In this document: positions 16,352 through 18,890 of the stretch, piece by piece | How positions within the stretch are numbered: position 1 is the first letter of the stretch | How the letters are laid out: every line of letters starts with the position of its first letter | Assembly: GCF_009914755.1 (NCBI RefSeq) | Contig: NC_060931.1 | Direction: 5' to 3' (one strand) | Length of the DNA: 64,000 nt | From: the human T2T-CHM13v2.0 reference genome, Homo sapiens | Notes under the pieces: generated by a model | Told to the model about the DNA's origin: nothing | What the model saw: only the letters and a program-made list of their open reading frames with translations | Database searches by the model: none | Made by a program: the position numbers and the translations under genes

Positions 16352-16360
16352 GAGTATATA

Positions 16361-16714
16361 TATATTAGCCTGTACTCACACTGCTAATAAAGACACACCT
16401 GAGACTGGGTAATTTATAAGGAAAGAGATTTAATATACTCACAGTTCCACATGGCTGTGGAGGCCTCACAATCATGGTGGAAAACAAAGGAGACACAAAG
16501 GCACATCTTACATGGTGGCAGGCAAGACAGCTTGTGCAGGGGAACTCCCATTTATAAAACCATCAGATCTTCTGAGACTCATTCACTACCACAAGAACAG
16601 TATTGGGGAAACCGCCCCCATGATTCATTTATCTCCACTTGGCCCAGCTCTTGATACATGGGGATTATTACAATTCAAGGTGAGATTTAGGTGGGACACA
16701 GCCAAACCATATCA
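16361..16714 (-). mobile_element. THE1 LTR (3' LTR of the chimeric element)
   Basis: tatattagcc...ccaaaccatatca, followed by the polypurine-tract complement of THE1-int. Confidence 0.9.
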
Positions 16715-18258
16715 TTCTACCCAAGCCCCTCCCAAATCTCATGTTCTCACATTTCAAAATGAATCATGCCTTCCCAACAGTCCCCAAAAGTCTTAATTCA
16801 TTTCACCATTAACTCAAAAGTCCACAGTCCAAAGTCTCATCTGAGAAAAGGTAAGTCCCTTCCACCTATGAGCCTGTAAGATGAAAAGTAAGTTAGTTAC
16901 TTCCTAGATATAATGGTTGTACAGGCATTGGGTAAATACACCCATTCCAAATAGGAGAAATTAGCCAAAACAAAGGGGCTACAGGCCCCTTGTAAGTCCA
17001 AAATACAATGGAGCAGTCAAATTGTAAAGCTCTGAAATTATTTCCTTTGACTCCATGTCTCACATCCAGGTCATGCTGATGCAAGAGGTGGGCTACCATG
17101 GCCTTGGACAGCTCCATCCCTGTGGCTTTGTAGGGTACAGCCCCACTCCTGCTACTTTCATGGCTGGCATTAAGTGTCTGCAGCTTTTCCATGAGCACAG
17201 TGCAAGCTATTGGTGGATCTGAACCATTCTGAAGTCTGGAGGACAGTGACCCTCTTCTTACAGCTCCAGTAGGCAGTGCCCCACTGGGGACACTGTGGGG
17301 GCTCCAACCTCACATTTCCATTCTGCACTGCCCTAGCAGAGGTTCTCTATTAGGGCTCTGCCCTTGTAACAGACTTTGGCCTGGACATCCAGGCATTCCC
17401 ATACAACTTCTGAAATCTAGGCACAGGTTCTTAAACCTAAATTCATGATTTTTGTGCACTGGAAGGCACAACATCATGTGAAATCCACCAAGGCTTGGGG
17501 CTTGCACCCTCTGAAGCAACAACCTGAGCTCTACATTGGCCCCTTTTAGCCATGGCTGGGACACAGAACACCAAGTCCTGAGACTGCACAAAGCAGCAAG
17601 GCCCTGGGCCTAGCCCATGAAACTATTTTTTCCTCCTAGACATCCAGGCCTGTGATGGGAGGGGCTGGCATGAAGACCTCTGGCATGCCCTGGAGACATA
17701 TTTCCCATTGTCTTAGGGATTAACATTTGGCTCCTCTTTATTTATGCACATTTCTGCAGCCAGCTTGAATTTCTCTTCAAAATTTATTTTTCTTTTCTAT
17801 CACATCATTAGGCTGTGTATTTTCCAAATTTTTATGTGCTGCTTCCCTTTGAATGCTTTGCCACTTAGCAATTTCTGCTGCCAGATACCATTAATCATCT
17901 CTCTCAAGTTCAAAGTTCCATAGATATCTAGGGCAGGGGCAAAATGCTGCCAGTCTCTGCATAGCAAGACTGACCTTTACTCCAGTTCCCAGCAAGTTCC
18001 TCATCTCCATCTGAGACCACCTCAGCCTGGACTTTATTGCTCATATCACTATCAGCATTTTGGCCAAAGCCATTCAACAAGTCTCTAGGAACTTCCAAAT
18101 TTTCTCACATCTTTCTGTCTTCTGAGCACTCCAAGTCTCTAGGAAGTTCCAAAGTGTCCCACATTTTTCTATCTTCTTCTGAACCCTCCAAACAGTTCCC
18201 GCCTCTGCCTGTTATCCACATCTTTACAGCAGCTCCCCACTTCTGGTAAAAAAAAATC
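16715..18258 (-). mobile_element. THE1 internal region
   Basis: Collinear with the internal regions at 11932-13464 and 41819-43363. Confidence 0.92.
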
Positions 18259-18777
18259 TGTATTAGTCAGGGTTCTCTAAAGGGACAGGACTAATAGGAT
18301 AGATGTATATATAAAAAGGAGTTTATTAAGGAGTATTGACTTACAGGATCACAAGGTGAAGTCCCAAAATAGGCCATCTGCAAACTGAGGAACCAGGAAG
18401 CCAGTCTGAGTCCTAAAACCTGGAAAGTAGTAAGCTGAAAGTGCAGCTTTCAGTCTGTGGCCAAAGGCCTAAGAGCCCTTGACAAACCACTGGTGTAGGT
18501 ACAAGAGTCCAAAAACCGAAAAACTTGGGAGTCCGATGTTCGAGGGCAGGAAGCATCCAGCATAGGAGAAAGATGGAGGCCAGACGACTCAACCAGTCTG
18601 CTCTTTCCATGCCTGCTTTTATGCTGGCAGCTGATTAGATGGTGCCCACCCAGATTGAGGGTGGGTCTGCCTCTCCTGTCTACTGATTCAAATGTTAATC
18701 TCCTCACAGACACACCCAGGAACCATACTTTGCATTGTCCAATCCAATCAAGTTGACACTCAATATTAACCATCACT
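18259..18777 (-). mobile_element. MLT2A2-like HERV-L LTR in the 5'-LTR position of the THE1 element
   Basis: tgtattagtcagggttctct...ggagtccgatgttcgagggcaggaagcatccagc...caatccaatcaagttgacactcaatattaaccatcac; no THE1 LTR similarity beyond the terminus. Confidence 0.88.
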
Positions 18778-18890
18778 ATATAAAAATCAGTAAGAAAGAG
18801 ATACTTTACTTAAAAATTTTTGTTTAGATAATTGGAAAAAATAATTTAGACTCCTACTTCACCCAAAAATAAATTTGAGATGAACATAAT

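What the first reader, a model, noticed from the sequence alone, without database searches (positions are those of the whole stretch)
16355..18782. Chimeric provirus: HERV-L (MLT2A2-like) 5' LTR fused at the PBS to a THE1 internal region and THE1 3' LTR
Seen: on the minus strand the order is MLT2 LTR (18777-18259), PBS, THE1-int, PPT, THE1 LTR (16714-16361). The junction reads ccacttctggtaaaaaaaaatc|tgtattagtcaggg, whereas the ordinary THE1 in this window has ctggtaccaatttac|tgtattagtcc (13450-13475). So the LTR-PBS spacer also looks HERV-L-like (aaaatc) and the crossover lies at the PBS. The cassette is flanked by (t)atata on both sides (16355-16360, 18777-18782), and the host L1 ORF2 appears collinear across it. 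Known: a normal provirus has two identical LTRs at integration; THE1 lacks pol and is presumed to depend on ERVL enzymes. Inference: this is the product expected if HERV-L plus-strand strong-stop DNA annealed through the shared PBS to a THE1 minus strand in the same particle. It would be fossil evidence of HERV-L/THE1 co-packaging. Caveats: the TSD is low-complexity, and post-integration conversion or recombination through the shared terminus and PBS is an alternative.
Basis: partly seen in the sequence, partly recalled or inferred. Interest (0 to 1): 0.82.

Follow-up and report, generated by a model that had tools for sequence, protein, structure and literature searches.

The report
Hybrid retrovirus fossil with mismatched ends
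An old, dead retrovirus-like insert on human chromosome 7 has the front repeat of one family (ERV-L) and the body and rear repeat of another (a THE1-type MaLR), and two more such hybrids elsewhere in the genome hint that the two families once shared the same particles.

Summary
On the minus strand, window 16361-18777 is one LTR element with two unrelated LTRs. The 519-nt 5' LTR has kin that flank proviruses with reverse transcriptase, integrase and a dUTPase after integrase, which marks ERV-L. The 1,544-nt internal region and the 354-nt 3' LTR match ordinary MaLR proviruses in the same window. The same 5-nt host repeat (TATAT) abuts both ends. New here: a junction search of the reference found two more loci, on chr17 and chr6, with the same build. 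Their flanks are unrelated and their spacers differ, so they are independent events. Their 5' LTRs are closer to ordinary ERV-L LTRs than to one another. In two of the three loci the switch lies between the ERV-L-type spacer and the primer-binding-like stretch. In the third it lies in the shared LTR terminus. The best reading is a hybrid DNA made during reverse transcription in a particle holding both RNAs, then inserted as a unit 25-55 My ago. That step is inferred, not shown. Still open: base-level continuity of the host L1, the chr6 duplication, orthologues, the reciprocal form, and a full census (40 of 8001 candidates scored). The element is old and has no pol or env.

The parts
18778..18782 (.). 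Host target-site duplication, copy next to the 5' LTR (TATAT on the minus strand)
   Evidence: 5 of 5 identical to the copy at 16356-16360. The boundary rule was checked on ordinary solo copies of the same LTR type (5/5, 5/5 and 4/5).
18259..18777 (-). 5' LTR, 519 nt, ERV-L type (the name MLT2A-like is recalled; subfamily not resolved)
   Evidence: 80.3-83.6% identity over nearly its full length to 7 ordinary copies (L004-L010); kin of this LTR (L010 with L028, L024, L025) lead into a shared internal region with RVT_1, RT_RNaseH_2, rve and dUTPase hits. K2P 0.123-0.145 to the ordinary copies.
18235..18258 (-). Junction zone: short spacer, a T run, and a primer-binding-like stretch whose first bases are degenerate
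   Evidence: the first 5 spacer bases match 4-5 of 5 in four ERV-L-type copies and 2 of 6-7 in two ordinary MaLR copies. MaLR-type sequence follows.
16715..18258 (-). Internal region, 1,544 nt, MaLR type (THE1-like; name recalled). The gag-related reading frame is decayed and there is no pol or env.
   Evidence: 75.7-77.1% identity to two ordinary MaLR proviruses; no match to ERV-L-type internal regions at the protein level (E<=0.01) or the DNA level (E<=0.001); 0 of 4 open pieces hit a Pfam family; 30, 18 and 25 stops in the three frames; the longest open stretch is 138 aa.
16361..16714 (-). 3' LTR, 354 nt, MaLR type (THE1-like; name recalled)
   Evidence: 71-76% full-length matches to MaLR LTRs in the window, plus shorter partial matches; 80.5% to the 3' LTR of the chr17 hybrid; unrelated to the 5' LTR.
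16356..16360 (.). Host target-site duplication, copy next to the 3' LTR
16046..16350 (+). Neighbour: Alu-like SINE (name recalled) with a short A tail, 9 nt from the 3' LTR end
   Evidence: reading; 7 other copies in the window at 70-76% identity.
15400..16045 (+). Host: decayed L1 ORF2 remnant to the left of the insert on the plus strand
   Evidence: the piece 15871-16044 hits only L1 ORF2 protein chains (residues 864-895, E 0.12-0.21); short matches to 9 other genome places.
18783..18990 (+). Host: presumed continuation of the same L1 ORF2 remnant to the right of the insert. This rests on my reading and recall only.
   Evidence: No tool placed it. The next piece that could be placed is 20566-20733, on ORF2 protein residues 1028-1069 (E 0.34).

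Best explanation
The element is a hybrid provirus that entered the germ line as one piece of DNA, roughly 25-55 million years ago. It is not two insertions that were later joined.

Proposed route: a virus-like particle of an ERV-L held both an ERV-L RNA and the RNA of a non-autonomous MaLR (THE1 type). Both were reverse-transcribed. The ERV-L plus-strand strong-stop DNA carries a complete LTR, the short spacer and a copy of the primer-binding site. It annealed through that shared site to the finished minus strand of the short MaLR genome instead of to its own. Extension of both strands gave a linear DNA with a whole ERV-L LTR on the left and the MaLR body and MaLR LTR on the right. The ERV-L integrase inserted this DNA with the family's usual 5-nt duplication.

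Shown: the architecture, the unrelated LTRs, the ERV-L identity of the 5' LTR type, the MaLR identity of the rest, the duplication, and recurrence at two other loci. Inferred: co-packaging, the intermolecular second strand transfer, and which integrase acted.
For: 1. The LTRs are heterologous (best match E 0.26). Ordinary reverse transcription makes two identical LTRs (established knowledge).
2. The 5' LTR is complete. It aligns from base 2 to base 519 with ordinary copies. Its kin lead into proviruses with RT, RNase H, integrase and a dUTPase after integrase (4 of 10 open pieces). Passages of PMC5753468 state that dUTPase marks the ERVL lineage and that HERVL pairs with MLT2A1/A2.
3. The internal region and 3' LTR are ordinary MaLR along their whole length and have nothing from the ERV-L interior.
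4. The duplication is 5 of 5 here (null 0.0044) and 4 of 5 at chr17 (null 0.015). The same rule gives 5/5, 5/5 and 4/5 for three ordinary solo copies.
5. Recurrence: 2 of the 39 other scored hits span the whole junction, and both have a MaLR 3' LTR. Their flanks do not match ours. The three spacers differ.
6. Each hybrid's 5' LTR is closer to ordinary copies (K2P 0.123-0.145) than to the other hybrids (0.155-0.168). A hybrid could not copy its own mismatched arrangement, because replication evens out the LTRs (established knowledge). These are therefore separate events.
7. In 2 of 3 loci the ERV-L-type spacer is kept and MaLR-type sequence starts in the primer-binding-like stretch. That is the predicted joint.
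Against: 1. The chr17 hybrid has the MaLR-type spacer (6 of 6 identical to an ordinary MaLR). Its switch therefore lies in the last few bases of the LTR, not in the primer-binding site, and the simple model needs relaxing.
2. Our duplication is low-complexity, and part of the TA run is made by the LTR end itself.
3. The chr6 duplication is undecided: 2 of 5 by the strict rule, and 4 of 5 after a 1-nt shift (null 0.086 when shifts are allowed).
4. Base-level continuity of the host L1 was not shown.
5. The terminal branch of the 5' LTR (0.054-0.065) is shorter than that of the 3' LTR (at least 0.081). A later conversion of the 5' LTR would also give this result. However, the 3' value is inflated because no close kin were available.
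6. Only 40 of 8001 candidates were scored. The 3'-swap and reciprocal forms were not searched, so no polarity bias is shown.
7. No orthologous or empty site was read.
Confidence: 0.6

Rival explanations
1. Change after integration. An ordinary MaLR provirus sat here, and its 5' LTR was later overwritten by gene conversion or double crossover from an ERV-L LTR elsewhere. The short stretches the two families share at the LTR start and at the LTR end plus primer-binding site guided the exchange.
For: The duplication and host flanks would be preserved, as seen. The two families do share the LTR terminus and the primer-binding-like stretch. The chr17 joint lies inside the shared LTR terminus, which fits any homology-guided exchange. 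The 5' LTR shows a shorter terminal branch than the 3' LTR.
Against: The shared stretches are only about 10-20 nt, far below what mammalian conversion normally needs (established knowledge). The rest of the LTRs are unrelated. It would have to happen three times, each time replacing exactly one whole LTR.
Confidence: 0.2
2. Ectopic crossover between two separate proviruses, one ERV-L and one MaLR, at the shared primer-binding region, with loss of the DNA between them. Alternatively, two neighbouring or nested insertions followed by a deletion.
For: Unequal recombination between proviruses is a known source of mismatched LTR pairs (recalled; no paper read here). The window is rich in MaLR copies.
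Against: Such products carry flanks from two different sites, so no matching duplication is expected. Here it is 5 of 5, and 4 of 5 at chr17. No ERV-L internal sequence lies downstream. The weak L1 placements on both sides are on the same strand and in order. A deletion ending exactly at the LTR-spacer joint in three loci is unlikely.
Confidence: 0.07
3. A small replicating hybrid family: one hybrid arose once, and the three loci are its copies.
For: Three loci share the architecture.
Against: A replication cycle would give progeny two identical mixed LTRs, not this arrangement (established knowledge). The 5' LTRs are not each other's nearest kin. The spacers differ. The chr6 3' LTR is far from ours (K2P 0.28, against 0.195 for chr17).
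Confidence: 0.05

Closest known systems
Mosaic or recombinant human ERVs, such as HARLEQUIN and the class I/III recombinants HERV18, HERVL32 and HERVL66 (PMC5753468, passages); 'mosaic forms are common' (PMC4724089, passages)
   Same: Parts of two retroviral families are joined in one provirus. Recombination during reverse transcription of co-packaged RNAs is the usual explanation.
   Different: Those mosaics became families with matched LTR pairs and internal crossovers. Here the two LTRs themselves belong to different families, the joint is at the LTR end or primer-binding site, and each locus is a dead-end single event. PMC4724089 left MaLR analysis out of its scope.
Complex LTR retrotransposon insertions made by abnormal template switching in Triticeae (Sabot and Schulman 2007, PMC1950507; abstract read)
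   Same: A daughter element is fused from two parent sequences during reverse transcription and then inserted as one unit. The authors contrast this with recombination after integration.
   Different: Those cases are plant elements, and they are large fusions in which two elements share an LTR. They are not a single-length element with one LTR swapped between an autonomous family and its presumed non-autonomous dependant.
Inter-element recombinants of LTR retrotransposons reviewed in PMC6894440 (passages), which lists Ty1/Ty2 hybrids and others as products of heterodimeric cross-packaging
   Same: Cross-packaging of different elements' RNAs is followed by strand transfer.
   Different: The review describes mosaic LTRs from the first (minus-strand) transfer and internal copy-choice. 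An intermolecular second (plus-strand) transfer giving two different whole LTRs is not among the passages I saw.
Ordinary THE1/MST MaLR proviruses, such as window 11605-13812 (-) and 41477-44010 (+)
   Same: The internal region, the 3' LTR, the size, the lack of pol and env, and the age range are the same.
   Different: The ordinary copies have two like LTRs (K2P 0.16 and 0.144-0.155) and the MaLR-type spacer.

Membership tests
ERV-L (HERV-L) LTR, MLT2A type: applies to the 5' LTR only | Copies of the LTR flank an internal region with class III pol and a dUTPase placed after integrase | tested here: met
   The kin L010 with L028, L024 and L025 share a long internal region. RVT_1, RT_RNaseH_2, rve and dUTPase were hit in 4 of 10 open pieces, with rve followed by dUTPase in one open stretch. 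PMC5753468 passages state that dUTPase marks the ERVL lineage.
ERV-L (HERV-L) LTR, MLT2A type: applies to the 5' LTR only | Full-length similarity to other members | tested here: met
   80.3-83.6% identity over bases 2/15-517/519 to 7 copies. K2P 0.123-0.145.
ERV-L (HERV-L) LTR, MLT2A type: applies to the 5' LTR only | Assignment to subfamily MLT2A2 by a repeat library (Dfam/RepeatMasker) | not testable with these tools
   No repeat library was on hand, so the name is recalled. The low pairwise distances fit the young primate MLT2A group (65-45 My in PMC11359688 passages) rather than the older MLT2 groups.
MaLR, THE1/MST type: applies to the internal region and 3' LTR | Internal region of about 1.5 kb without pol or env, similar to other MaLR proviruses | tested here: met
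   75.7-77.1% identity to two ordinary copies. No Pfam family in 0 of 4 open pieces. No similarity to the ERV-L interior.
MaLR, THE1/MST type: applies to the internal region and 3' LTR | THE1 versus MST, and the subfamily letter | not testable with these tools
   The label THE1-like is recalled. The nearest 3' LTR in hand is at K2P 0.195.
Ordinary provirus made by one round of reverse transcription | Two LTRs of the same sequence at integration | tested here: not met
   The LTRs are unrelated; the best match is 15 nt at E 0.26.
Ordinary provirus made by one round of reverse transcription | Short direct duplication of host DNA at both ends | tested here: met
   5 of 5 bases match, null 0.0044.
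Hybrid made by intermolecular plus-strand strong-stop transfer | A whole donor LTR plus the donor spacer, a joint inside the primer-binding site, everything downstream from the acceptor, and an intact duplication | tested here: inconclusive
   All features are met at this locus. The joint is met at chr6, but its duplication is undecided. At chr17 the duplication is met (4 of 5) but the spacer is acceptor-type. The process itself cannot be seen in sequence.

The most novel reading that the evidence does not exclude
ERV-L/MaLR hybrids with a swapped 5' LTR may be a recurrent class of fossil left by heterologous second strand transfers inside ERV-L particles. If so, they would be the first direct sequence record that HERV-L particles packaged and reverse-transcribed THE1/MST RNAs. 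That would name the autonomous partner of the most abundant LTR-element superfamily in mammals. It would also give a countable genome-wide readout of how often the two met in one particle.
Probability: 0.45. Interest if true: 0.75.

Novelty: new variant of a known kind. Interest (0 to 1): 0.6.

Why it matters
MaLRs make up about 3.65% of the human genome (PMC3769647, passages) and have no polymerase of their own. That they borrowed ERV-L enzymes is a long-standing presumption, based on shared termini and distant gag likeness (PMC11359688, passages).

A provirus with a whole ERV-L LTR, a joint at the primer-binding site, a MaLR body and tail, and one clean duplication is hard to make unless both genomes were being copied in the same particle. 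Three independent examples turn a curiosity into a class that a repeat-annotated genome can count and date, in primates and perhaps in mouse.

The element has no medical or functional weight. It is old and broken, it has no pol or env, and it lies in a window with no annotated gene.

Tried and rejected
1. Host L1 continuity at base level did not work. My second genome search, with the left flank, gave only 9 short weak matches of 44-92 nt. The right flank could not be placed on those loci by blastn or by tblastn of separate open pieces. Local alignment against the predicted continuation also failed: z scores ran from -1.4 to 2.1, and 7 to 193 of 200 shuffles reached the observed score. The L1 sequence next to two solo LTRs (L026, L027) did not help either.

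2. PDB sequence searches placed 2 of 5 L1 pieces, both weakly. The other 3 of 5 gave nothing. Pfam found no L1 domain in 0 of 9 host pieces.

3. My first try at linking the 5' LTR type to a polymerase failed. The 5 kb downstream of L004 (L013) gave no retroviral domain in 14 of its 25 open pieces. Eleven pieces were not sent. One sub-threshold unrelated hit was ignored. L004 and L010 also share nothing downstream. The second cut solved this.

4. I looked for gag likeness between our internal region and ERV-L-type interiors and found none. This does not contradict the distant likeness reported in PMC11359688, because our copy is decayed.

5. Frameshifts in the gag-related frame were not counted, because I had no intact reference. 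Only stops per frame are given.

6. RefSeq gene names gave no usable L1 reference locus.

7. I considered the idea that the T run at the joint is an L1-type poly-A trace, and rejected it. The two other hybrids have the same joint without it.

8. I found no paper on an ERV-L LTR joined to a MaLR interior. Only CC-licensed PMC and bioRxiv are covered, so older subscription papers and Repbase/Dfam notes may hold it. Supplements, such as the tables of PMC4724089, were closed.

9. Not done for lack of caps or tools: a search for 3'-LTR swaps and for the reciprocal form (a MaLR 5' LTR on an ERV-L body); a full census; orthologues in other primates; and a test of the primer-binding-like stretch against a tRNA.
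Full report
**What is there.** Read on the minus strand, window 16361-18777 is a single LTR element. It has a 519-nt 5' LTR (18259-18777). A 24-nt junction zone follows, made of a short spacer, a T run and a primer-binding-like stretch. The internal region as a whole, junction zone included, is 1,544 nt (16715-18258). A purine-rich end leads into a 354-nt 3' LTR (16361-16714). The two LTRs are unrelated: the best local match is 15 nt at E 0.26. The 5' LTR has no other copy in the 64-kb window. The internal region matches two ordinary proviruses in the window, 11605-13812 (-) and 41477-44010 (+), at 75.7% and 77.1% over about 1.47 kb. The 3' LTR matches their LTRs and several solo LTRs at 71-76%.

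**Family of the 5' LTR.** No repeat library was available, so I linked the LTR to a polymerase through its kin. The junction search gave 37 LTR-only matches at 86-89% over the last 250 nt. Seven full copies (L004-L010) are 80.3-83.6% identical to ours over nearly the whole length. A first attempt downstream of L004 found nothing retroviral. The second cut took five regions downstream of LTR copies whose match ran a few bases past the LTR end. Three of them (L024, L025, and L028, which continues L010) share a long internal region: 5,640 and 3,598 aligned nt. The other two are solo LTRs sitting in L1-like DNA. Stop-free pieces of L024 and L028 hit RVT_1 (E 2.7e-20), RT_RNaseH_2 (2e-12), rve (1.3e-13) and dUTPase (9.3e-09 and 1.7e-04), the last following integrase in one open stretch. 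That is 4 of 10 pieces with a retroviral enzyme domain, one with DUF5535 only, and five with nothing. Passages of PMC5753468 say that a dUTPase marks the ERVL lineage of class III and that HERVL pairs with MLT2A1/A2 and other MLT2 LTRs. The 5' LTR is therefore an ERV-L LTR. The label MLT2A-like is recalled, and it fits the low distances among copies.

**Family of the rest.** The internal region has no similarity to the ERV-L-type interiors and no Pfam family in 0 of 4 open pieces. All three frames are closed, with 30, 18 and 25 stops, and the longest open stretch is 138 aa. Compared with the two ordinary copies, it carries one short tandem duplication and one short deletion. I could not count frameshifts because I had no intact reference. 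Together with the 3' LTR, this is an ordinary, decayed MaLR of THE1/MST type. That name is recalled. PMC11359688 and PMC1794541 (passages) describe these families as lacking pol and env and as primate-specific.

**Inserted as one unit?** The five host bases before the 5' LTR and after the 3' LTR are identical (TATAT). Only 0.44% of random 5-mer pairs drawn from the same AT-rich flanks match 5 of 5. I checked the boundary rule on ordinary copies of the same LTR type. Three solo copies give 5/5, 5/5 and 4/5. One copy followed by a primer-binding-like stretch gives 1/5, as expected. One copy gives 2/5. The host on both sides looks like a very old L1 ORF2 on the plus strand. A left piece places on ORF2 protein residues 864-895. 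A piece 1.8 kb beyond the element places on residues 1028-1069. In both searches the only hits are L1 ORF2 protein chains, but the E-values are weak (0.12-0.34). Everything I tried to show continuity at base level failed. My own reading that the L1 frame resumes directly after the duplication rests on recall and is not tool evidence. An Alu-like SINE (16046-16350) lies 9 nt from the 3' LTR and leaves the duplication intact.

**Recurrence, the main new result.** A 501-nt query centred on the LTR/internal joint found two other places that match across its whole length: chr17:34905308-34905836 (81%) and chr6:130783069-130783580 (77%). These are 2 of the 39 non-self hits scored, out of 8001 first-look candidates, so the count is a lower bound. 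Extending both loci shows the same build: an ERV-L-type 5' LTR, a MaLR interior, and a MaLR-type 3' LTR (80.5% and 72.0% identical to ours). Their flanks do not match ours. Each hybrid's 5' LTR is nearer to ordinary ERV-L LTRs (K2P 0.123-0.145 for ours) than to the other hybrids (0.155-0.168). The chr6 3' LTR is far from ours (0.28). A hybrid of this kind could not pass on its mismatched arrangement by replication. The three are therefore independent events. The chr17 duplication matches 4 of 5 (null 0.015). The first ten bases of the chr6 5' LTR are scrambled (3 of 10 match ours; the next twenty match 19 of 20). Its duplication is therefore undecided: 2 of 5 by the strict rule and 4 of 5 with a one-base shift, with a null of 0.086 when shifts are allowed.

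**Where the switch lies.** Four ERV-L-type copies that continue past the LTR (L004, L010, L024, L025) share a 5-nt spacer. The two ordinary MaLR proviruses in the window share a different 6-nt spacer. Our element and the chr6 hybrid keep the ERV-L-type spacer (4-5 of 5 and 3-4 of 5 identical) and turn MaLR-like within or right after the first bases of the primer-binding-like stretch. The chr17 hybrid has the MaLR spacer (6 of 6) behind an ERV-L-type LTR end (17-18 of the last 20 nt). Its switch therefore lies in the few terminal LTR bases that both families share. The 3' joints are ordinary MaLR in all three.

**Mechanism.** One round of reverse transcription copies both LTRs from the same template, so two different LTRs need either an intermolecular second (plus-strand) transfer or a change after integration. 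It predicts a whole ERV-L LTR with the ERV-L spacer, a joint in the primer-binding site, MaLR sequence downstream, and one duplication. This locus meets all four predictions, and chr6 meets the joint. The chr17 locus meets everything except the spacer, which needs a joint a few bases earlier. One could imagine annealing that reaches into the shared LTR end, but that is speculation. As an inference, the short MaLR minus strand would be finished long before the ERV-L one, which would favour this polarity.

**Rivals.** These are conversion after integration (0.2), ectopic crossover or nested insertions plus deletion (0.07), and a replicating hybrid family (0.05). The first is weakened by the very short shared stretches and by three exact whole-LTR replacements. 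The second is weakened by the matching duplications. The third is weakened by the distances and spacers. None is excluded without orthologues and an empty site.

**Age.** A three-point estimate from pairwise K2P distances, made without any consensus, gives a terminal branch of 0.054-0.065 for our 5' LTR. Ordinary copies give 0.062-0.086 and the other hybrids 0.084-0.086. Our 3' LTR gives at least 0.081, which is inflated by the lack of close kin. The two ordinary MaLR proviruses in the window have LTR-LTR distances of 0.16 and 0.144-0.155. With recalled rates of 0.13-0.22% per million years, our element dates to about 25-50 My and the ordinary neighbours to about 33-62 My. Papers place MLT2A1/A2 at 65-45 My (PMC11359688) and the origin of THE1 at 55 My (PMC1794541, Table 1). 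The integration is therefore early anthropoid. The element is old, broken, and without pol or env. It is neither young nor like a present-day virus.

**Known or new.** Mosaic ERVs are common (PMC5753468, PMC4724089). Fused elements made by template switching and inserted as a unit are described in Triticeae (PMC1950507, abstract). Cross-packaged recombinants are reviewed in PMC6894440. In eight searches I found no paper on an ERV-L LTR joined to a MaLR interior. The library lacks most subscription journals, supplements were closed, and Repbase/Dfam notes were not visible. I rate it a new variant of a known kind, with interest 0.6. It does not overturn anything. It does give the long-presumed ERV-L/MaLR dependence a direct, countable sequence trace.

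Noticed in passing
window 11605-13812 (-) and 41477-44010 (+): Two ordinary full-length MaLR proviruses lie in the window, with LTR-LTR K2P of 0.16 and 0.144-0.155. The second has an Alu-like insert splitting its 3' LTR at about 43517-43813.
   Followed up: partly
window 5437-5814, 24446-24829, 25272-25631, 30196-30911, 46569-46902: There are five further MaLR-type LTR matches. The window is unusually rich in this superfamily and has no annotated gene.
   Followed up: no
window about 19000-20480: About 1.5 kb lies between the L1-like pieces to the right of the element and matched nothing in the window or the fetched loci. The L1 protein placements imply an extra insert here. Its nature is unknown.
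   Followed up: no
window 16046-16350 (+): The Alu-like SINE lies 9 nt from the 3' LTR and is only 70-76% identical to 7 other copies in the window, so it is an old copy. Whether it or the hybrid inserted first is unresolved.
   Followed up: partly
window 13467 and 41806 regions; loci L004, L010, L024, L025: Ordinary MaLR copies carry, at the primer-binding position, a stretch much like that of the ERV-L-type proviruses. One review states that MaLRs lack a primer-binding site (PMC3769647, passage). I did not check the match to a tRNA.
   Followed up: partly
L024 (chr12:120.60 Mb), one open piece upstream of the RT piece: This piece hits Pfam DUF5535 (E 1.3e-06, above the cut-off). That family of unknown function may therefore be built on ERV-L-derived sequence.
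   Followed up: no
L004 with L013 (chr6:40.64 Mb): An ERV-L-type LTR is followed by the ERV-L spacer and a primer-binding-like stretch. After that comes sequence unrelated to the ERV-L interior, with no retroviral domain in 14 of 25 pieces tested. This may be another rearranged or hybrid copy.
   Followed up: partly
L008 (chr4:156.46 Mb): A full-length ERV-L-type LTR has unmatched 5-nt flanks (2 of 5). It may be a recombinant solo LTR or one end of a provirus.
   Followed up: no
L012 (chr6 hybrid, internal region): The match to our internal region is split into two pieces about 300 nt apart, which suggests a later insert inside that hybrid.
   Followed up: no
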